Below are positions 7,966 through 35,283 of a DNA stretch of 64,000 nt, one piece after another (position 1 is the stretch's first letter; each line of letters starts with the position of its first letter). Source of the stretch: a virus. The notes under the pieces were generated by a model that did not search any database, was not told the DNA's origin, and worked only from the letters and a program-made list of their open reading frames with translations. Made by a program: the position numbers and the translations under genes. Where the stretch lies: IMG/VR virus record IMGVR_UViG_3300045988_062794. One strand, 5' to 3'.

Positions 7966-8051
7966 GTAAATGTAGTTTAAACACTATTATAGTGTAAGGA
8001 GAAAACAAGCAATTTTCATTGCTTATAAGAGTTCGAGTCTCTTCATTTACT
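7966..8051 (+). ncRNA. tRNA-shaped element E1 (expanded D-loop, non-canonical anticodon-position loop)
   Basis: Acceptor stem GTAAATG (7966-7972) / CATTTAC (8044-8050). T-arm AAGAG-TTCGAGT-CTCTT (8027-8043). D-stem GTTT (7975-7978) / AAAC (8003-8006) encloses a 24-nt loop that has its own ACACT/AGTGT hairpin. The arm at the anticodon position, AAGCA/TGCTT, has an 8-nt loop ATTTTCAT (or 6 bp plus a 6-nt loop), never 7 nt. A T7 run follows (8051-8057). Confidence 0.5.
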
Positions 8052-9395: not shown

Positions 9396-9746
9396 CAGTT
9401 TACAACTTCATTATTTCTTCAGTGGCTGTACTTGCATGCGAATGTAGGTGCAGTCGTCCTCAGAAAATGACAAACCTGTGGGGCGTAAGTAACTAAGTAG
9501 TAATACTATAATGTCAGTATGTAGTATTACACTGAAACTGACTGTTATGATCGTGCGGACGTAAAAATCAGGTAGATGATAAGAATTGTACTGACAATAC
9601 AATTCTGCTGTATCTTAAAACAAGTTTTGATAGTCAAATTTTCCTAAACCAATCCTCGTTATTAGGTAAAATTTCTTTTTGTTTACGTATTGCTACAACA
9701 ATACACATCTGTTATGTATTTATTTTGCATTGTAGTTGTAGATACA

Positions 9747-10333: not shown

Positions 10334-10585
10334 CTCGCCAGTTATAACTCTTTTATTAATAACTCTAAAGTTAACGCTTATGAGTATGGTGGTTATCCCC
10401 AAGCATGTTAAACCTAACGCCCTAAACTCACTAAAATGTATATGAAGATATATACTACGAGTTGTGTATTTATATACAAATGACATAGTAAAAGTTCTAT
10501 GTTAATTATAAGAAGGAAAGGAGGTAAGATAGGAATAAGGAATAAGAATACTATCTCATGCTTTTTACTTTAGAAACTTATTTGT

Positions 10586-11298: not shown

Positions 11299-11646
11299 TC
11301 TACAATCCAGTACTAAAGTGTCTATGTACTAATAGTATGTGTAATGTGAATCTTGAGTAGCATTACAGAGAGGAATAAACCTCTCTACTCAAGTCCCTTG
11401 TGGCAGTAGTAGGATATATGAGCGTATCAAAGACGGCAAGTATGTGTGCCTTAGTGCCAGCTTTTTGCTACATACTTTCTATCAAAGATTTCAAATTGAA
11501 AACAGTATATGCTTTATGCTAGATTCTATGAGTATGTCTTGTATTTTGTTTAGCATTCAATAAGTCCCAGGCATGGGCAAGGAATCAATAACACTATTAC
11601 AAATATACTCTTTATAGAATCAATACTATTAGTAAATTCTTAGAGA

Positions 11647-11671
11647 GTAAGGAGAGTGATCTCCTTACTTT
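11647..11671 (+). terminator. terminator-like hairpin in a convergent spacer
   Basis: GTAAGGAGA-GTGA-TCTCCTTAC (9 bp with a GNRA-type loop) followed by TTT. Confidence 0.4.
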
Positions 11672-11738
11672 CACTATATTCACGGTATAAGAACTGTGCT
11701 GTGTCTTATTAGGCTTATTAATCATTGTTAGGACGGGG

Positions 11739-12284
11739 CTATCGTATGCCCCCATCTCCACTATACTTTTGTGCAATTATATTGCATAATTTAATAGTAT
11801 CTTCATGAGACATTGTATTTTTCATATAATTTATTGCAGTAGATATAAATTGTACATTACCAATTTCATATCCTTTAGAAGAATCTATTCTATCTAAAGA
11901 TGCAGTATAAATAGGATTATTATGATTTTTAGTATAAGTTGCTAATTGTAATTTAATTCCAGTATATGGACAAATACCGTTTTGTTGTTCCCATATTTCT
12001 TTTAGATATTCTAATGTTAAATTAAAGTTTTTAAGTCTTTTCTTTGCATTTCTAAGATAATATCTAAAAGGAGTAAATTCATCTTTGCGATTATTTGAAA
12101 TAAGATTAATAATATTACCACTTTTATTATTTTTATTTCCTTTCATTGAACAAGATCTACAACAATAATTATGTCTTTTCAATCGTATATTACGATTATA
12201 TTCTGTAATTGGTTTATCATACAGTTGTCCACAATTATCACAAACTATTTGAATTAATTTTCTATTCTGTTTATATTTTAACAT
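11739..12284 (-). CDS. HNH-family homing endonuclease
   Basis: 181 aa with an N-terminal CxxC...CCxxC and C-terminal CPYTG....SLDRIDSSKGYEIGNVQFISTAINYMK. It is the only minus-strand gene inside the plus-strand block. Confidence 0.7.
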   Translation of the reverse strand: MLKYKQNRKLIQIVCDNCGQLYDKPITEYNRNIRLKRHNYCCRSCSMKGNKNNKSGNIINLISNNRKDEFTPFRYYLRNAKKRLKNFNLTLEYLKEIWEQQNGICPYTGIKLQLATYTKNHNNPIYTASLDRIDSSKGYEIGNVQFISTAINYMKNTMSHEDTIKLCNIIAQKYSGDGGIR

Positions 12285-12487
12285 AATATTAAAATTTTTA
12301 ATTCGAAAACGTATAATATGTGGAATAGTTCTGTTTCGATATTAAAATATACGGGGATGAACGGTTTTGACTAGCAATTAGAGAGATAAGATAGGTTCGT
12401 TGTGTGTTTAAATGGCAATATTTTTGTCACAGACTATACCGGCTTAGTAGCTGCGTAAGTTTGCGTGCTAACTACGAAAGTGAGGGA

Positions 12488-12553
12488 GATAATATAGTTC
12501 AATGGTAGAATAATGCTTATGCATAGATCTGGGTTCAAATCCCAGTATTATCA
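12488..12553 (+). ncRNA. 65-nt tRNA-shaped element E2 lacking an anticodon loop (UUAU tetraloop hairpin instead)
   Basis: GATAATA|TA|GTTC-AATGGTA-GAAT|A|ATGC-TTAT-GCAT|AGAT|CTGGG-TTCAAAT-CCCAG|TATTATC|A. It has a 7-bp acceptor stem, a glycine-tRNA-like D-arm and a canonical T-arm. Only 12 nt occupy the position where a 17-nt anticodon arm belongs. Confidence 0.6.
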
Positions 12554-13464: not shown

Positions 13465-13882
13465 ATTGAAAGAAAGTGGAAGCTATTTAGTAGTCGTAGA
13501 AGGATGCGAAATCATTGCAGTAATAGAAGGATGCGCACCTATGTTACGAATAACTCGTGCATTTAACTTATCTAAGTTCATAGAAGATGGAACAATGATC
13601 GACAGTAAAGAAGCCGTAGAGGCTATAAGTCAGAATCCTTCTAATTTCAATTTCAAACCATTAAATTTAACTGTTGAGCAATTCTCGTTGCAAGAGATTA
13701 AACAAGACAAATCATTAGCTTACACTAATAAAGAATACCAAAGATGGTTATCTATCTGTGGTAGTATTGACGATAGTGTTCTAATTAGCAATATCATGCT
13801 CGAAAAAGGGTTTAGTCATGCACAAGCAAACTTAATAGTTGAACAGTTATGGAAGGACAAAAGAAACTCATTACAGCGGTAG
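13457..13882 (+). CDS. hypothetical protein
   Basis: 141-aa ORF. Confidence 0.5.
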   Translation: MNELKESGSYLVVVEGCEIIAVIEGCAPMLRITRAFNLSKFIEDGTMIDSKEAVEAISQNPSNFNFKPLNLTVEQFSLQEIKQDKSLAYTNKEYQRWLSICGSIDDSVLISNIMLEKGFSHAQANLIVEQLWKDKRNSLQR

Positions 13883-14328
13883 ATGAGCAAGACTTAAACA
13901 AATATTTAAGGAGTCGATTAGTAGAACCATATCTTCCAAAAGATTTAGTAGAAGATTGGTCTATATTTGGGTCTGTAGTATCAAATGTATATGGACCAAA
14001 CGGTATATTACCACCTGAATACAGAAACAACGATTTAAAACTATGGCTACTACATAAGTTGCAAGTAAAAGCGTTGTTAAAGTATGCTCAGTGGAAGATT
14101 TTCAGTAATATAGCTATGCTAAATAACAGAAGATCCACTGATAATGTATTAACAAGGATATTTGTATCTAAGTTAAACAATTTGGAACTGCCTAAAGTTT
14201 ATGCAGATGAAATATTTGATAATTTTCATCTACAATATGTGGTACGCAAGCCTGTCTTTGAAGACTATTTTGTTATCAAAGTATTAGGTTTACCATTCGG
14301 GTATGAACGAAAGGAGTGTCCTTTTTAG
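13849..14328 (+). CDS. hypothetical protein
   Basis: 159-aa ORF. The G of its TAG stop is nucleotide 1 of minihelix E3. Confidence 0.5.
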   Translation: MEGQKKLITAVDEQDLNKYLRSRLVEPYLPKDLVEDWSIFGSVVSNVYGPNGILPPEYRNNDLKLWLLHKLQVKALLKYAQWKIFSNIAMLNNRRSTDNVLTRIFVSKLNNLELPKVYADEIFDNFHLQYVVRKPVFEDYFVIKVLGLPFGYERKECPF

Positions 14329-14365
14329 ATAGGTAGGGGTTCGACTCCCCTACTTATCACCACCA
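14328..14365 (+). ncRNA. acceptor/T-arm minihelix E3 with an encoded CCACCA
   Basis: GATAGGT (14328-14334) stacks directly on AGGGG-TTCGACT-CCCCT (14335-14351), then ACTTATC (14352-14358), discriminator A, and CCA CCA (14360-14365). The 12-bp coaxial helix includes one G:T wobble. There is no D-arm or anticodon arm. Confidence 0.5.
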
Positions 14366-14381: not shown

Positions 14382-14942
14382 ATGAAGAGAGAAGATGAAG
14401 ACAATCTAATTAGGCAGGCTAAACTTGGCGATCAGAAAGCTTTTAGTACGCTTTACGACCGTCACAAGCCATTAATTCGATACATTATCTTTGATATTGT
14501 AAAGAATGATGATGTAGCAGATGATCTCCTATCTGTTACATTTACTAAGGCTTTCAGTCGTATAGACTCATATGTTAATCCTATTTCATTTGAGTTATGG
14601 TTGAAGAGTATTGCGGTCAATACCTCAATTGATTACATACGACACACTAAGAATGAGAAGCAGAATCATTATATTGATTCCGAGGATAATTACATTCAAT
14701 TGCAAGATAGTGAATTGTCTGCAGAAGATATTATATCTAAGCGAGAATCTATTGATCAATTGAAAGTAGCTCTGAGTAGATTGAGGTTTAAGTACCGTAA
14801 TATATTAGAATTACGGTACTTTAAAGGCCTCAGCTATGAACAACTCGCAAATGAATTAGCCGTGCCTATAGGAACTATAAAAAGTGACTTAAACAAGGCT
14901 AAAAAGAAATTACGAGAATTCTATAACAAACTTAATAACTAA
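14382..14942 (+). CDS. ECF-type sigma-70 family RNA polymerase sigma factor
   Basis: 186 aa. The region-2 signature is SFELWLKSIAVNTSIDYIRH. Region 4 is LSRLRFKYRNILELRYFKGLSYEQLANELAVPIGTIKSDLNKAKKKLRE. Confidence 0.85.
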   Translation: MKREDEDNLIRQAKLGDQKAFSTLYDRHKPLIRYIIFDIVKNDDVADDLLSVTFTKAFSRIDSYVNPISFELWLKSIAVNTSIDYIRHTKNEKQNHYIDSEDNYIQLQDSELSAEDIISKRESIDQLKVALSRLRFKYRNILELRYFKGLSYEQLANELAVPIGTIKSDLNKAKKKLREFYNKLNN

Positions 14943-14954
14943 TATTTACAAACA

Positions 14955-15335
14955 ATGGCAGAAGTAGCAATTATCGCAATTGTAGTCATCTTATTAGCCA
15001 TCATTATCGGTAAGGCCAACCATAGTGATGCATTAATTTGGAGATTACTATTCGTCTTTAGCCTTACTGTTTGCGTATCTGTTGGTCTTCTCTATATTCT
15101 GAATGAAAAGCCAAAGCTTTCAGCTCAGACTATTGAGAAAGATAGTAAGATGATTATAGATGCAGACACGTCCCACACAGTAAACTTCAACCAGATTACA
15201 ATGGAAGAAGCGTCTTGTGACACTGTGGGTCAGGACACTACATCTTATGATCATCTTACTCGGATACAGTGCATAAACATGATGCCAGCAATTGCAAAAG
15301 CAATAGCTGAGCATGCTATCTTTGATTCTTCATAG
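14955..15335 (+). CDS. two-helix membrane protein (possible anti-sigma partner)
   Basis: 126 aa with AIIAIVVILLAIIIG and LLFVFSLTVCVSVGLLYIL. It lies 12 nt downstream of the sigma gene. The functional link is inferred from position only. Confidence 0.4.
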   Translation: MAEVAIIAIVVILLAIIIGKANHSDALIWRLLFVFSLTVCVSVGLLYILNEKPKLSAQTIEKDSKMIIDADTSHTVNFNQITMEEASCDTVGQDTTSYDHLTRIQCINMMPAIAKAIAEHAIFDSS

Positions 15336-20886: not shown

Positions 20887-22200
20887 ATGGTTAAAACGTA
20901 CAATAACATTGCAGAATATGCCAAAAAGTTACTAATTGAAGCAAATCCGTATATTGATGAAAAAGATATTTATATCACAGCTAATACAGATATAGCTAGT
21001 ACTTTTCGAATATTAAAAGAAAAAGACTTAGCCTGTATTGACACAAGTGGTACTGAAGAAATACCATTAATACATTATACTATTTATAGTGAATCTTTAA
21101 AAGAAAAAGAGAAAGCATTTAGTAAAGAACGAGCATGTGAGCGTATTTTACAAGGTATAACTTCATATTCTTGTGAAGGGTTTACTGTAATTTCAGTTAG
21201 AGTAATTAATAAAGAAGAATCGCCAAGTGAAGAAGATTTTATACTATATGCTTTTACTGAAGCTATGTATAATCGAGCATTTGAATTAGCCTATAAAGAA
21301 GGAGAGATCAAATACACTATCGTACCAGATAATGGTATACATCGTGCAATCGTGCGTGATTCTATGATGGGAAAATATCTTGAATATATTAAAGTAGAAG
21401 ATATACCGTCTAATAGTGCTATTCATCAATGCAAAGAAGATATTCTTAAAAGTGCAGAGTTCTTCTTTAAGAATATTCCATTATTCTCACGATTTGGACA
21501 GAAACCGTTACGTAAGTTCTTATTGTGTGGAGAACCTGGAACAGGTAAAACTTCTATTTGTTATGATATTGCTAAGGAATATCAGAAAGATATACCTATA
21601 GTATTTGTGACAGATTTTGATTCTTTAGCAAAACACATTTCAGAATGTGCAAAGGTTAATAAACGAACCATTGTAGTATTTGAAGATTGTGAAGTTGGCT
21701 TCCGTAATTCTGCAATTGACTCTTCAATTCTTAACTTCCTTGATGGTATTGATCGACCGAATATTCAGGATGGTGCTATAGTTATTATGACTACTAATCA
21801 TCCAGAACGTATTGAGGCTCGTATTACCAAACGTCCAGGTCGTATCGATAAGTTATTCTTTATAAACGCCTTAGAAGGACAATCAGCAATTGATGTCTTT
21901 AACCTTTACTTTGGTGAATTTATGAAGGAAAATAATTTTGATGCTACTACTCAAACAGCAAAAGAAGCTATTGAAATTATTGCTTCTGGTATGACTGGTG
22001 CTCAGATTAAGGAATTATTTAACAGTTATGTTTGTTACATGGTATCAGAAGCAAAAGATTTTAACCTCAATGACGTATTTAATACGAAAGTTGAATTGTT
22101 TAAATCTTTTGATGACATGGACAAGAACTATAACTCTATAGAAGCTAATAAAGAGTTTGATAAAGCTCGAGGTAAAATTCTATCTGTTTTGAACAGATAA
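20887..22200 (+). CDS. AAA+ ATPase (classic FtsH/Cdc48-type AAA module)
   Basis: 437 aa. Walker A is LLCGEPGTGKTS, Walker B is IVVFEDCE, and the sensor/arginine region is IMTTNHPERIEARITKRPGRIDK. Confidence 0.8.
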   Translation: MVKTYNNIAEYAKKLLIEANPYIDEKDIYITANTDIASTFRILKEKDLACIDTSGTEEIPLIHYTIYSESLKEKEKAFSKERACERILQGITSYSCEGFTVISVRVINKEESPSEEDFILYAFTEAMYNRAFELAYKEGEIKYTIVPDNGIHRAIVRDSMMGKYLEYIKVEDIPSNSAIHQCKEDILKSAEFFFKNIPLFSRFGQKPLRKFLLCGEPGTGKTSICYDIAKEYQKDIPIVFVTDFDSLAKHISECAKVNKRTIVVFEDCEVGFRNSAIDSSILNFLDGIDRPNIQDGAIVIMTTNHPERIEARITKRPGRIDKLFFINALEGQSAIDVFNLYFGEFMKENNFDATTQTAKEAIEIIASGMTGAQIKELFNSYVCYMVSEAKDFNLNDVFNTKVELFKSFDDMDKNYNSIEANKEFDKARGKILSVLNR

Positions 22201-22206
22201 GCATAG

Positions 22207-22234
22207 AGTAGGAGAAATTAAGTTTTCTCCTACT
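22207..22234 (+). terminator. terminator-like hairpin
   Basis: AGTAGGAGAAA-TTAAGT-TTTCTCCTACT (11 bp). There is no clear T tract. Confidence 0.4.
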
Positions 22235-22287
22235 TACACTGGTAATTGATGCAAAATCGATAGTATTAATTTTAAAATCAAATCGAT

Positions 22288-22860: not shown

Positions 22861-22926
22861 TTGTGTATAGTTTAATGGTAGAATATCTCGAAAGAGAAGA
22901 TATGAGTTCGAGCCTCATTACACAAC
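22861..22926 (+). ncRNA. 65-nt tRNA-shaped element E4 lacking an anticodon loop (GAAA tetraloop hairpin instead); twin of E2
   Basis: TTGTGTA|TA|GTTT-AATGGTA-GAAT|A|TCTC-GAAA-GAGA|AGAT|ATGAG-TTCGAGC-CTCAT|TACACAA|C. The architecture, the TAGTTyAATGGTAGAATA D-arm and the AGAT spacer are the same as in E2. A GGCAA/TTGCC hairpin (22846-22860) abuts its 5' end. Confidence 0.6.
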
Positions 22927-30797: not shown

Positions 30798-31607
30798 ATG
30801 GGTAAAAAATTGACTGTACATTTTGATTCTCTCGAAAAGTTTTACACGGAGTGTGAAATTGTCGAAGATACTGGGACTAAAGGTCATTATGATGAAATTT
30901 GTAATGAAGATGACCCAGGTTGGAAAGGTTTATCTCTTGAGGAAATACAAAAAGCAAAATATTTCTATAATAAAGGCTTAGACAAACTTGAGTCTTTAAC
31001 TCAAGAGATGCAATTAGGTGGCTCTGGAAAATCCTATAAATGGGATGAAAACGATGGTGATGAGCTTAATTATGATCGTTTTCTCGAAGGGCTACCTTGC
31101 CTTAAAAAGCGAGTAAAGAAATTAGGTAATAAAAATGGTAAATTTATACGATTACATATTGGGATAGGTGAAAACTGGATGGTAACAGCAGAAGATATGC
31201 TTTACAAGTCCTATACAGCTATTAAATTAGCAGATTACCTTGAACAACAAGGGTATCGTGTAGAAATTTCTACGTTTGCTGAGGTTGCAGATTTAGGTCG
31301 ATTCAAAGGTGAACAATTAGAGTATCTTATTACTGAGGTAATCATTAAAAAAGCAGAAGATCCACTGATACTACCTCAAATTCTTACTTGTATCTCTCCT
31401 TGGATGTTTAGATACCATGTGTTTAAGTTTTGGACAGCAAAATTTCAATGTAGGAGTGGTTTAGGCCATTCTATAGCTGCTAAACATAAGGAGACTAAAG
31501 AAGATATTTGGATTACATCAGGACAATGTCTTGATGAAAATTCAGCCAATCAAAAGATTGAGCAAATTATAAAACTCTTCGACAAAGAGCATGGGGACGA
31601 AGATTAA
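30798..31607 (+). CDS. hypothetical protein (partner of the MoxR-like ATPase, by position)
   Basis: 269-aa ORF. Its TAA stop (31605-31607) forms the first three nucleotides of E6. Confidence 0.55.
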   Translation: MGKKLTVHFDSLEKFYTECEIVEDTGTKGHYDEICNEDDPGWKGLSLEEIQKAKYFYNKGLDKLESLTQEMQLGGSGKSYKWDENDGDELNYDRFLEGLPCLKKRVKKLGNKNGKFIRLHIGIGENWMVTAEDMLYKSYTAIKLADYLEQQGYRVEISTFAEVADLGRFKGEQLEYLITEVIIKKAEDPLILPQILTCISPWMFRYHVFKFWTAKFQCRSGLGHSIAAKHKETKEDIWITSGQCLDENSANQKIEQIIKLFDKEHGDED

Positions 31608-31726
31608 CGATTGCTCAGTAATGAGCGGACACCACTGGCATGGAGAAGGCAAACTTGAAAAGAGTGTGGAATCGTTAAATTGGCGATAAGGAAACTTATC
31701 TGGGGGTTCGAATCCCCCCTCGTTAC
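31605..31726 (+). ncRNA. tRNA-shaped element E6 (~122 nt, large insertion, GAAA-capped arm before the T-arm)
   Basis: Acceptor stem TAACGAT (31605-31611) / CTCGTTA (31719-31725), 6 of 7 pairs. D-like arm GCTC-AGTAAT-GAGC (31613-31626). GATAAG-GAAA-CTTATC (31685-31700) lies 1 nt before T-arm GGGGG-TTCGAAT-CCCCC (31702-31718). About 57 nt in between remain unassigned. Confidence 0.4.
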
Positions 31727-31727
31727 A

Positions 31728-31743: not shown

Positions 31744-31840
31744 AGGGAGTAAACACAATCTATTAATAATAGATAGATACGAAGATGTGTGAATGGACCA
31801 GGTTTATACCTATGGAGCGGTTCGAGTCCGCTACTCCCAC
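31744..31840 (+). ncRNA. tRNA-shaped element E7 (~97 nt, UUAU-capped arm before the T-arm)
   Basis: Acceptor stem (A)GGGAGT (31744-31750) / ACTCCC(A) (31833-31839), 6 bp plus an A:A at 1-72. ACACA (31753-31757) / TGTGT (31786-31790) encloses the ATCTATT/AATAGAT hairpin. The CCAGGT-TTAT-ACCT..GG arm (31798-31815) abuts T-arm AGCGG-TTCGAGT-CCGCT (31816-31832). Confidence 0.45.
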
Positions 31841-35246: not shown

Positions 35247-35283
35247 AAGAAAGGGGACCGTTGTGAAACGCTCCCCTTTTTGT
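35247..35283. terminator. bidirectional intrinsic terminator at the convergence point
   Basis: AAAGGGGA (35250-35257) / TCCCCTTT (35272-35279), with an A run upstream and a T run downstream. It lies between the 3' ends of the plus-strand and minus-strand blocks. Confidence 0.75.

What the first reader, a model, noticed from the sequence alone, without database searches (positions are those of the whole stretch)
14328..14365. Free-standing acceptor/T-arm minihelix ending in a genomically encoded CCACCA (E3)
GATAGGT is directly continuous with AGGGG-TTCGACT-CCCCT and then ACTTATC-A-CCA-CCA. This is a 12-bp coaxial helix capped by a canonical T-loop, the top half of a tRNA with no D-arm or anticodon arm. 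In a real tRNA fragment, such as an attP remnant, the bases 5' of the T-stem would be variable loop and would not complement the 3' acceptor strand. The minihelix therefore looks purposeful. Minihelices are known minimal substrates for RNase P, CCA-adding enzymes and some aminoacyl-tRNA synthetases. Tandem CCACCA is known as a degradation mark added to unstable tRNAs and tRNA-like RNAs, and here it is templated. The first G of the helix is the last base of the upstream TAG stop, and the sigma-factor gene starts 17 nt downstream of the second CCA.
Basis: partly seen in the sequence, partly recalled or inferred. Interest (0 to 1): 0.65.

Follow-up and report, generated by a model that had tools for sequence, protein, structure and literature searches.

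The report
tRNA-like minihelix before phage sigma gene
A gut crAss-like phage carries, between two genes, a conserved 12-base-pair RNA hairpin that copies the top half of a tRNA, most likely a cutting signal for the host's tRNA-trimming enzymes; the eye-catching CCACCA tail is a local quirk of this one phage.

Summary
The hairpin is real. At 14328-14358 there are 7+5 base pairs capped by TTCGACT, followed by A-CCA-CCA. It begins on the last base of the upstream stop codon, and the ECF sigma gene starts at 14382.

The window is a Suoliviridae crAss-like phage. The same hairpin sits upstream of the sigma gene in about 100 related contigs. The stem sequences differ but pairing is kept: 9 of 12 pairs show compensatory double changes in each of two clades. 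So it is a selected RNA structure on the sense strand. It is not an att remnant; no bacterial genome carries the 24-mer.

Three features are conserved: helix length (12 bp), a nearly invariant A at -1, and invariant A73-C74. Two features are not. CCACCA occurs only in this species; relatives have ACTAA. The T-loop is clade-specific; other clades have a hexaloop.

The window holds two sister hairpins with the same flanks, several anticodon-less tRNA-likes and a two-piece tmRNA. All of these share the A-C 3' signature.

Best reading (about 0.45): it mimics a tRNA acceptor/T-arm and acts as an mRNA punctuation signal for RNase P, RNase Z or both, like plant-mitochondrial t-elements.

The parts
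13849..14328 (+). Upstream ORF (159 aa, no family match). Its TAG stop (14326-14328) supplies helix base 1.
14327..14327 (+). A at position -1. It cannot pair with A14359, so the helix ends at exactly 12 bp. It is A in 18 of 19 unique relatives.
14328..14334 (+). Acceptor-like 5' strand GATAGGT
14335..14339 (+). T-stem-like 5' strand AGGGG
14340..14346 (+). 7-nt loop TTCGACT matching the tRNA T-loop consensus. It is invariant in the T-loop clade.
14347..14351 (+). T-stem-like 3' strand CCCCT
14352..14358 (+). Acceptor-like 3' strand ACTTATC. T14354 makes the G.U pair, which becomes G-C or A-U in population variants.
14359..14360 (+). Discriminator-like A followed by C ('A73-C74'), invariant in all relatives and in the sister hairpins
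14360..14365 (+). CCACCA, present only in this species-level clade (relatives have CTAAC and similar)
14382..14942 (+). ECF-type sigma factor gene (Sigma70_r2 + r4). It lies 23 nt after the helix, which is too close for its own promoter.
11643..11672 (+). Sister hairpin (a): A|GAGAGTAAGGAG-AGTGAT-CTCCTTACTTTC|AC (13 bp + GNRA if the A-T pair is counted), just upstream of the tmRNA acceptor piece. It is conserved in relatives.
22206..22235 (+). Sister hairpin (b): A|GAGTAGGAGAAA-TTAAGT-TTTCTCCTACTT|AC, after ORF 20887..22200. It is conserved in L112/L113 with an entirely different helix sequence.
12488..12553 (+). tRNA-shaped element with a 4-nt 'anticodon' loop and an A-C-A tail, directly after the tmRNA coding piece. 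It has the same top half and the same flanks.

Best explanation
The element is an RNA structure in the sense transcript of the phage's replication/early gene module. It mimics the coaxial acceptor-stem/T-arm half of a tRNA: a 12-bp helix capped by a T-loop, then an unpaired A-C. I infer that it works as an intercistronic punctuation signal. The host's tRNA-maturation endonucleases measure a 12-bp acceptor/T helix. RNase P would cut at its 5' edge, between A14327 and G14328. RNase Z, or 3' trimming, would act after A14359 in relatives that lack CCA. Either cut separates the upstream gene's mRNA from the sigma-factor mRNA. If only the 5' cut is made, the sigma mRNA is left with a flush 5'-terminal hairpin. 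Shown here: the structure, its conservation and covariation, its fixed length and flanks, its family context and its strandedness. Inferred: which enzymes act, that cleavage occurs, and the consequences for sigma expression.
For: (1) Covariation. In the T-loop clade 9 of 12 pairs have double changes and 95.8% of cells are paired, reached by 0 of 500 shuffles. In the hexaloop clade 9 of 12 pairs have double changes and 100% are paired. Within the species the G.U pair becomes G-C or A-U. G.U pairs place the structure on the + (mRNA) strand. (2) The features a tRNA-end ruler would read are the conserved ones. The helix is always 12 bp; the 12th pair covaries (U.G, C-G, U-A) in the hexaloop clade. 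A is at -1 in 18 of 19 unique relatives, and A73-C74 is invariant. The stem sequence is free to vary. (3) The same A-C 3' signature follows the phages' tmRNA acceptor pieces, a normal-looking tRNA-Lys, and all the tRNA-like elements. (4) There is a continuum at one locus. The element after the tmRNA coding piece ranges from full tRNAs (Lys-ttt, Leu-taa), through cloverleaves with 6- or 4-nt anticodon loops, to near-minihelices: L027 is acceptor + 14 nt + T-arm, and L099 carries the same AGGGG-TTCGACT-CCCCT arm. Only the top half is under selection there. That position is where a cut is needed to make the tmRNA 3' end, and hairpin (a) flanks the other side of the tmRNA. (5) It is not a terminator. 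No U-tract follows it in any clade, while the phage's real terminators are hairpin + TTTT. The sigma ATG is only 16-23 nt away in most relatives, so transcription must read through. (6) Literature. Bacterial RNase P recognises a 12-bp stem plus T-loop and also cuts hairpin substrates and phage RNAs (PMC10731613). Plant-mitochondrial t-elements and acceptor-like stem-loops mark mRNA ends through RNase P/Z (PMC1920247). Most Bacteroidetes tRNA genes lack templated CCA (PMC5143459), which fits the CCA-less tails of the relatives. Early transcripts of crAss-like phage phi14:2 had 5' ends without any common promoter motif.
Against: There is no RNA-end or cleavage data. The T-loop is absent from most Suoliviridae clades and from both sister hairpins, so T-loop recognition cannot be essential. 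Position -1 is A, whereas bacterial RNase P prefers U. In the window itself the templated CCA would, by analogy with B. subtilis RNase Z (my own knowledge), inhibit the 3' cut. A phage protein or another nuclease could equally read a fixed-length hairpin with fixed flanks. The conserved C74 is not clearly explained if the host RNase P does not use RCCA pairing.
Confidence: 0.45

Rival explanations
1. It is a generic RNA stability or regulatory hairpin. It could protect the 3' end of the upstream mRNA, protect the 5' end of the sigma mRNA, or bind a phage or host RNA-binding protein that tunes sigma expression. tRNA enzymes would play no part, and the T-loop in one clade would simply be a stable cap borrowed from the phage's many T-arms.
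For: Most clades and both sister hairpins have hexa- or tetraloops instead of a T-loop. The position, right after a stop codon and just before a regulatory gene, is typical of such elements. A similar T-loop hairpin sits after a capsid-like gene in an unrelated viral contig, where stabilisers or attenuators are common.
Against: Stability alone does not explain the constant 12-bp length, the A at -1 with A73 mismatch that stops helix extension, the invariant C74, or the sharing of these flanks with tmRNA and tRNA 3' ends. The T-loop is invariant across relatives spanning 62-100% sigma identity while the stems change.
Confidence: 0.25
2. It is a termination, pause or attenuation signal for the phage's own virion RNA polymerase, which transcribes the early module in crAss-like phages. 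It would gate read-through into the sigma gene.
For: The early module of crAss-like phage phi14:2 is transcribed by a non-canonical virion RNAP whose signals are unknown. The three hairpins lie at gene boundaries on the sense strand.
Against: There is no U-tract. The sigma gene has no room for a promoter of its own, so full termination would silence it. This model does not explain the shared A-C signature with tRNA and tmRNA ends.
Confidence: 0.12
3. After excision (and CCA addition, or with the templated CCA here) the free ~35-nt minihelix is the product. It would act as a decoy or sponge for enzymes that read tRNA acceptor ends, such as defence toxins that modify or cleave tRNA 3' ends, the CCA-adding enzyme, EF-Tu or synthetases.
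For: The phage keeps several anticodon-less tRNA-shaped RNAs whose only conserved part is the top half. Minihelices are known minimal substrates for CCA-adding enzyme and some synthetases (my own knowledge; PMC9976931 was listed but not read).
Against: There is no conserved identity set. G3.U70 appears only in some variants (L033, L036, L039) and not in the window. CCA is absent in nearly all relatives. No target system was identified.
Confidence: 0.1
4. One reading: a templated CCACCA marks the RNA for rapid 3' decay, as for unstable tRNAs and tRNA-like RNAs.
For: CCACCA is present and invariant in 10 + 6 contigs of this species.
Against: It is absent from every other clade (ACTAAC, ACTAAAC, ACACAT and so on). 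It is two substitutions away from the relatives' ACTAACA. The helix is stable and starts GA, not the GG plus unstable stem associated with CCACCA addition (my own knowledge).
Confidence: 0.03
5. It is a decayed tRNA gene or an attP-type tRNA 3' fragment.
For: The T-arm is identical to that of real tRNAs in other organisms.
Against: The 5' flank complements the 3' acceptor strand and covaries with it. There are 0 exact matches of the 24-mer in 185,579 species genomes. Sister clades have a non-tRNA loop at the same site, so the hairpin probably came first and the T-loop is derived.
Confidence: 0.03

Closest known systems
Plant-mitochondrial t-elements and acceptor-stem-like stem-loops (Forner et al. 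2007, PMC1920247)
   Same: They are non-decoding tRNA-like structures carrying the GGTTCRANYCC T-arm motif, or bare acceptor-like stem-loops. They sit at mRNA boundaries, and their edges coincide with mRNA ends made by RNase P/Z. Some lie so close to the ORF end that processed mRNAs lose their stop codon.
   Different: Those are organellar, mostly cloverleaf-like, and experimentally mapped. This element is in a bacteriophage, is reduced to a clean 12-bp minihelix with fixed A/A-C flanks, forms a multi-copy family, and has no mapped ends.
Hairpin-type bacterial RNase P substrates (pre-4.5S/SRP RNA, phage P1/P7 C4 RNA, intercistronic mRNA sites) and synthetic minihelix substrates
   Same: Each is a continuous helix standing in for acceptor + T stem, with an unpaired purine-C 3' tail. 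RNase P cuts at the 5' edge (for SRP RNA, tmRNA and phage RNAs; C4 RNA and minihelix substrates from my own knowledge).
   Different: Those have RCCA-like tails and an optimal U(-1). Here -1 is A and most copies have only A-C. Cleavage is untested.
MALAT1 mascRNA / MEN-beta tRNA-like 3' elements (my own knowledge)
   Same: A tRNA-like module embedded in a long transcript is cut by RNase P to define the upstream RNA's 3' end, then by RNase Z. The small product receives CCA, or CCACCA when unstable.
   Different: Those are eukaryotic nuclear full cloverleaf mimics, and the CCA or CCACCA is added post-transcriptionally, not templated.
Mitochondrial tRNA punctuation and phage T7 RNase III intercistronic hairpins (my own knowledge)
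   Same: Structured RNA between cistrons of a polycistronic transcript directs endonucleolytic separation and sets differential mRNA stability.
   Different: Punctuation uses functional tRNAs. T7 sites are ~20-bp RNase III substrates with internal loops, not 12-bp helices with a T-loop.

Membership tests
tRNA gene / tRNA pseudogene | Cloverleaf with D-arm and anticodon arm detectable by tRNA models | tested here: not met
   ARAGORN finds 0 genes. There is no Rfam tRNA hit at 14328-14365 even at E<=5. The T-stem is directly continuous with the 5' acceptor-like strand.
attP / integration-site tRNA 3' fragment | Identity to the 3' end of a host tRNA gene extending beyond the T-arm | tested here: not met
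   GGGGTTCGACTCCCCTACTTATCA has 0 exact matches in one genome per 185,579 species. The acceptor-like strands covary between phages.
tRNA-like processing element (t-element type) | Acceptor-like stem stacked on a T-arm with the GGTTCRANYCC motif | tested here: met
   GGTTCGACTCC is at 14338-14348 and the helix is 12 bp continuous. It is met in the T-loop clade only; sister clades have hexaloops.
tRNA-like processing element (t-element type) | Located at cistron boundaries on the sense strand of a polycistronic unit | tested here: met
   It lies between the stop codon of the upstream ORF and the sigma ATG. The sister hairpins are also intergenic and on the + strand.
tRNA-like processing element (t-element type) | RNA 5'/3' ends coincide with the element's edges; cleavage by RNase P/Z | not testable with these tools
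   No transcript-end data or enzymology is available. The look-up returned only long metagenome and Logan assembly contigs, which carry no RNA-end information.
Intrinsic (rho-independent) terminator | G+C-rich hairpin immediately followed by a U-tract | tested here: not met
   The tail is ACCACCATTTAG here and ACTAAC or ACACAT in relatives. The terminator scan does not call it. The phage's real terminators have TTTT.
CCACCA-tagged unstable tRNA-like RNA | Tandem CCA as a conserved or functional 3' mark on a destabilised acceptor stem | tested here: not met
   CCACCA is confined to one species-level clade. The stem is fully paired.
Alanine minihelix / tmRNA tRNA-like domain | G3.U70 pair with A73 | tested here: not met
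   The window has U3-A70, and the G.U pair is at 5:68. G3.U70 appears only in some relatives (L033, L036, L039). By contrast the phage's tmRNA does have G3.U70.
RNase III processing site | About two helical turns of dsRNA (~20 bp) | tested here: not met
   The helix is 12 bp in all clades and is bounded by an A.A mismatch.

The most novel reading that the evidence does not exclude
Suoliviridae crAss-like phages run a bacterial-virus version of tRNA punctuation. A graded family of tRNA top-half mimics (cloverleaves without anticodons, near-minihelices, bare 12-bp hairpins with A/A-C flanks), together with self-cleaving ribozymes, would dice the early polycistronic RNA. At the sigma-upstream site the predicted RNase P cut falls inside or flush with the stop codon (UA|G here, UA|A in cr10_1, UAA|G in others). 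That would create non-stop or stop-terminal mRNAs, which would hand the upstream protein to the phage's own two-piece tmRNA for tagging. Processing, sigma expression and trans-translation would then be coupled.
Probability: 0.12. Interest if true: 0.8.

Novelty: new variant of a known kind. Interest (0 to 1): 0.55.

Why it matters
If these hairpins are read by RNase P/Z, tRNA-shape-guided mRNA punctuation, known from organelles and a few eukaryotic lncRNAs, would also organise gene expression in one of the most abundant phage groups of the human gut. This exact sigma protein is indexed in 3383 blocks of the public assembly collection. It would explain why these phages keep tRNA-like genes that cannot decode. 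It would give a rule for annotating them: a 12-bp helix, usually A at -1, and an A-C tail. It would also supply compact, portable processing signals for Bacteroides engineering. The graded series from tRNA to minihelix is a natural experiment on the minimal substrate of tRNA-end enzymes.

Tried and rejected
(1) att or tRNA remnant: rejected by the genome scan, by covariation of the 5' strand and by the flank-complementarity control.

(2) Terminator: rejected by the absence of a U-tract in every clade and by contrast with the phage's real hairpin+TTTT terminators.

(3) DNA cruciform or protein-binding palindrome: disfavoured because G.T pairs exist on the + strand only. The reverse strand shows a mismatch at each of the three hairpins.

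(4) Alanine or other aminoacylation identity: no conserved identity pair.

(5) Function of the upstream gene as a clue: no Pfam or PHROG hit.

(6) Literature on crAss-like tmRNA, tRNA-like elements or minihelices: nothing describing this element.

(7) Looking for RNA-derived contig ends through the look-up of encoding contigs: only long metagenome and Logan assembly contigs were returned.

(8) A relaxed hairpin scan (<=1 mismatch, <=3 G.U) has a high background of 1.7 per shuffle, so only the strict class was used.

(9) A single combined alignment of both loop classes put the helices out of register, so the clades were analysed separately.

Full report
**Observation.** The sequence is as described. 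G14328 is the last base of the TAG stop of ORF 13849..14328. It opens a 12-bp helix, GATAGGT-AGGGG / CCCCT-ACTTATC, with one G.U pair. The helix is capped by TTCGACT and followed by A-CCA-CCA (14359-14365). The next ORF starts at 14382. That ORF is an ECF-type sigma factor with Sigma70 regions 2 and 4. The MFE structure is this hairpin, with z = -3.2. ARAGORN finds no tRNA in the window, and Rfam has no hit at this site even at E<=5.

**Where the window comes from.** It is a crAss-like phage of the family Suoliviridae. The nearest GenBank record is cr10_1 (Canhaevirus), at about 69% nucleotide identity over this region. The element lies in the long same-strand module that also holds the replication genes. 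In the model crAss-like phage phi14:2, the corresponding module is transcribed early by the virion RNA polymerase. The 5' ends mapped for those early transcripts shared no promoter motif.

**Conservation.**
- I fetched about 100 related loci through the sigma protein.
- A hairpin occupies the same place in nearly all of them. In most it directly abuts the upstream stop codon, and in most it lies 16-23 nt before the sigma ATG.
- In the clade with a T-loop (8 distinct sequences, sigma identity 62-100%), the loop TTCGACT is invariant and three of the five T-stem pairs never vary. The other two T-stem pairs each change only by a compensatory double swap: A-U to U-A in L031, and G-C to A-U in L077.
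- The outer 7 bp are rewritten, for example GATAGGT/ACTTATC, GGATATG/CATATTC, AAATGTT/AACATTT and AAGTACT/AGTACTT.
- In that clade 9 of 12 pairs show changes on both sides and 95.8% of cells are paired. No shuffle in 500 reaches this, and slid registers fall to 47-59% paired.
- In the other clades (Culoivirus, Buchavirus and others; 11 distinct sequences) the helix is again 12 bp, with 9 of 12 pairs double-changed and 100% of cells paired.
- There the loop is a hexaloop (TTGATC, TTGGTC, TTGGGT, TTAGTT). The 12th pair itself covaries: U.G, C-G in L094, U-A in L102.
- Within the window's own species, the single G.U pair is converted to G-C in one variant and to A-U in another.
- The many G.U pairs place the structure on the + strand, which means in the mRNA.

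**What is conserved and what is not.**
- Conserved: helix length; A at -1 in 18 of 19 unique sequences (invariant in the hexaloop clade; the exception is L039); and invariant A then C after the helix. A at -1 cannot pair with A73, so the helix cannot extend beyond 12 bp.
- Not conserved: CCACCA. Every contig of this species has it. Every other clade has ACTAAC, ACTAAAC, ACTAAT, ACACAT or ACATAT. ACCACCA is two substitutions from ACTAACA.
- The canonical T-loop is also clade-specific.

**The element belongs to a family.**
- A strict scan for 12 bp, no mismatch, a 6-7-nt loop and an AC tail finds three hits in the window, all on the + strand and all intergenic. Dinucleotide shuffles give 0.025.
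- The other two hits are 11643-11672, just upstream of a tmRNA acceptor piece, and 22206-22235, after ORF 20887..22200. Both are preceded by A.
- Both are conserved in relatives with different stem sequences. One example is GGTTATGGGGCA-TTGAAT-TGCCCCATAGTC-ACACTGG in L112.
- The complete cr10_1 genome has two strict hits. They are the homologues of the sigma and tmRNA copies, and both are on the gene-sense strand.

**Other tRNA-related RNAs in the window.**
- Two 66-nt cloverleaves have anticodon loops replaced by 4-nt loops (12488-12553 and 22861-22926).
- Three further elements have an acceptor stem plus T-arm and aberrant lower halves (7970-8050, 31605-31727, 31745-31839).
- There is a permuted two-piece tmRNA.
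- A hatchet ribozyme and a RAGATH-9 RNA are also present.

**A natural series from tRNA to minihelix.** In different relatives, the element directly after the tmRNA coding piece takes several forms:
- a normal-looking tRNA-Lys(ttt) or tRNA-Leu(taa);
- a cloverleaf with a 6-nt or 4-nt anticodon loop;
- an acceptor stem and T-arm joined by only 14-15 nt (L027; L099, whose T-arm AGGGG-TTCGACT-CCCCT is identical to the window's).

Selection at that locus therefore acts on the top half alone. tmRNA acceptor pieces, tRNAs, tRNA-likes and hairpins in these genomes all share the 3' signature A-C followed by something other than CA.

**Mechanism.** The conserved properties are those read by enzymes that measure the acceptor/T-arm stack.
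- Bacterial RNase P recognises a 12-bp stem plus T-loop. It also accepts substrates in which a continuous helix replaces the T-loop, including phage RNAs (PMC10731613).
- RNase Z and the CCA-adding enzyme also accept minihelices (my own knowledge).
- Bacteroidetes tRNA genes mostly lack templated CCA (PMC5143459). Host pre-tRNAs are therefore expected to be matured by RNase Z plus CCA addition, which matches the CCA-less tails of the relatives.
- The closest documented analogues are the t-elements and acceptor-like stem-loops of plant mitochondria, whose edges coincide with mRNA ends (PMC1920247).

I therefore propose that the minihelix is an intercistronic processing signal. A cut at A14327|G14328, and in relatives possibly after A73, would uncouple the sigma mRNA from the upstream genes. 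The two elements flanking the tmRNA precursor, hairpin (a) on the 5' side and the tRNA-like on the 3' side, are where such cuts are needed. All of this is inference; no RNA ends were available. Three points weigh against it: A rather than U at -1, the dispensability of the T-loop, and the unexplained invariance of C74.

**Rivals.**
- A canonical terminator is excluded. No U-tract follows the hairpin in any clade, the scan does not call it, and the phage's own terminators are hairpin+TTTT. The sigma gene also has no room for a separate promoter.
- An att or tRNA remnant is excluded by the absence of the 24-mer from 185,579 species genomes, and by covariation of the 5' strand with the 3' strand.
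- Still open: a stability or protein-binding hairpin, a signal for the phage RNA polymerase, or a released decoy minihelix.

**Beyond this family.**
- The identical T-arm occurs 121 times in the first 120 IMG/VR hits. Its 7-nt flanks are complementary at 0-5 positions in 116 cases and at 7/7 in 5 cases, where about 0.13 would be expected by chance.
- Of those five, one is cr10-like and the others are unrelated contigs. One of these has the minihelix 14 nt after a 437-aa capsid-like ORF.
- A metagenome contig (L140) has a perfect 12-bp T-loop minihelix followed by ACG directly after a 219-aa ORF.
- Free-standing T-loop minihelices may therefore be a wider, undescribed class of phage intergenic elements.

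**Verdict.** The CCACCA emphasis is not. The element is best classed as a new, phage-borne variant of tRNA-like processing signals, with its function still to be shown.

Noticed in passing
window 11681-11761 and 12353-12470 (+), with ORF 11739..12284 (-) between: This is a two-piece (circularly permuted) tmRNA. The acceptor piece ends GGGGC-TATCGTAT-GCCCC-CATCTCC-A-C, with an 8-nt non-canonical T-loop. The coding piece starts GGGGATG (12353), which gives a G3.U70 pair and a compensatory A5-U against cr10_1's C5-G. The tag ORF 12414-12458 encodes GNIFVTDYTGLVAA*. An HNH endonuclease gene sits on the opposite strand in the intervening segment and overlaps the acceptor piece. ARAGORN and Rfam miss this copy but find the uninterrupted one in relatives.
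   Followed up: partly
window 12488-12553 and 22861-22926 (+): These are tRNA-shaped RNAs (Rfam tRNA 59 and 48 bits) whose anticodon loop is only 4 nt (UUAU, GAAA), so they cannot decode. Both positions are conserved in relatives, where the loop is 4, 6 or 7 nt.
   Followed up: partly
window 7970-8050, 31605-31727, 31745-31839 (+): Three more intergenic elements have an acceptor stem plus a canonical T-arm (TTCGAGT or TTCGAAT) but aberrant or expanded lower halves. No tRNA finder calls them. The last one has the A|helix|ACTA flanks.
   Followed up: partly
window 9456-9573 and 10389-10566 (+): A hatchet self-cleaving ribozyme (85 bits) and a RAGATH-9 RNA (92 bits) lie upstream of the tmRNA region. 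Relatives carry RAGATH-9, -20 or -22 and group I introns at the corresponding place, so this is a dense non-coding RNA island.
   Followed up: no
window 14790-14821 (+), inside the sigma ORF: A perfect 12-bp inverted repeat AAGTACCGTAAT/ATTACGGTACTT encodes KYRN..LRYF. In the Canhaevirus-like clade two pairs change by paired synonymous substitutions. It is not kept in more distant clades. A second 12-bp hairpin at 14511-14542 is followed by T-ACTAA.
   Followed up: partly
window 35250-35279 (both strands): This is a canonical bidirectional intrinsic terminator (AAAGGGGACCGT-TGTGAA-ACGCTCCCCTTT + TTG/T-run), with homologues in cr10_1. It shows what real terminators look like in this phage.
   Followed up: no
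L199/L206/L240, L167, L140, L132: Free-standing T-loop minihelices with the same T-arm occur in unrelated viral or metagenomic contigs. Examples are AATAATG-AGGGG-TTCGACT-CCCCT-CATTATT 14 nt after a capsid-like ORF, and AGAAAGTAGGGG-TTCGACT-CCCCTACTTTCT-ACG right after a 219-aa ORF.
   Followed up: partly
window 14955-15335 (+): The ORF immediately after the sigma gene encodes a 126-aa protein with a hydrophobic N-terminal segment. This is the usual position and shape of an anti-sigma factor, but there is no family hit.
   Followed up: no
L114/L115 (cr10_1 record 64930-65970): The closest reference phage is annotated with a retron-type reverse transcriptase in its structural module. I did not check whether the window has one.
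   Followed up: no
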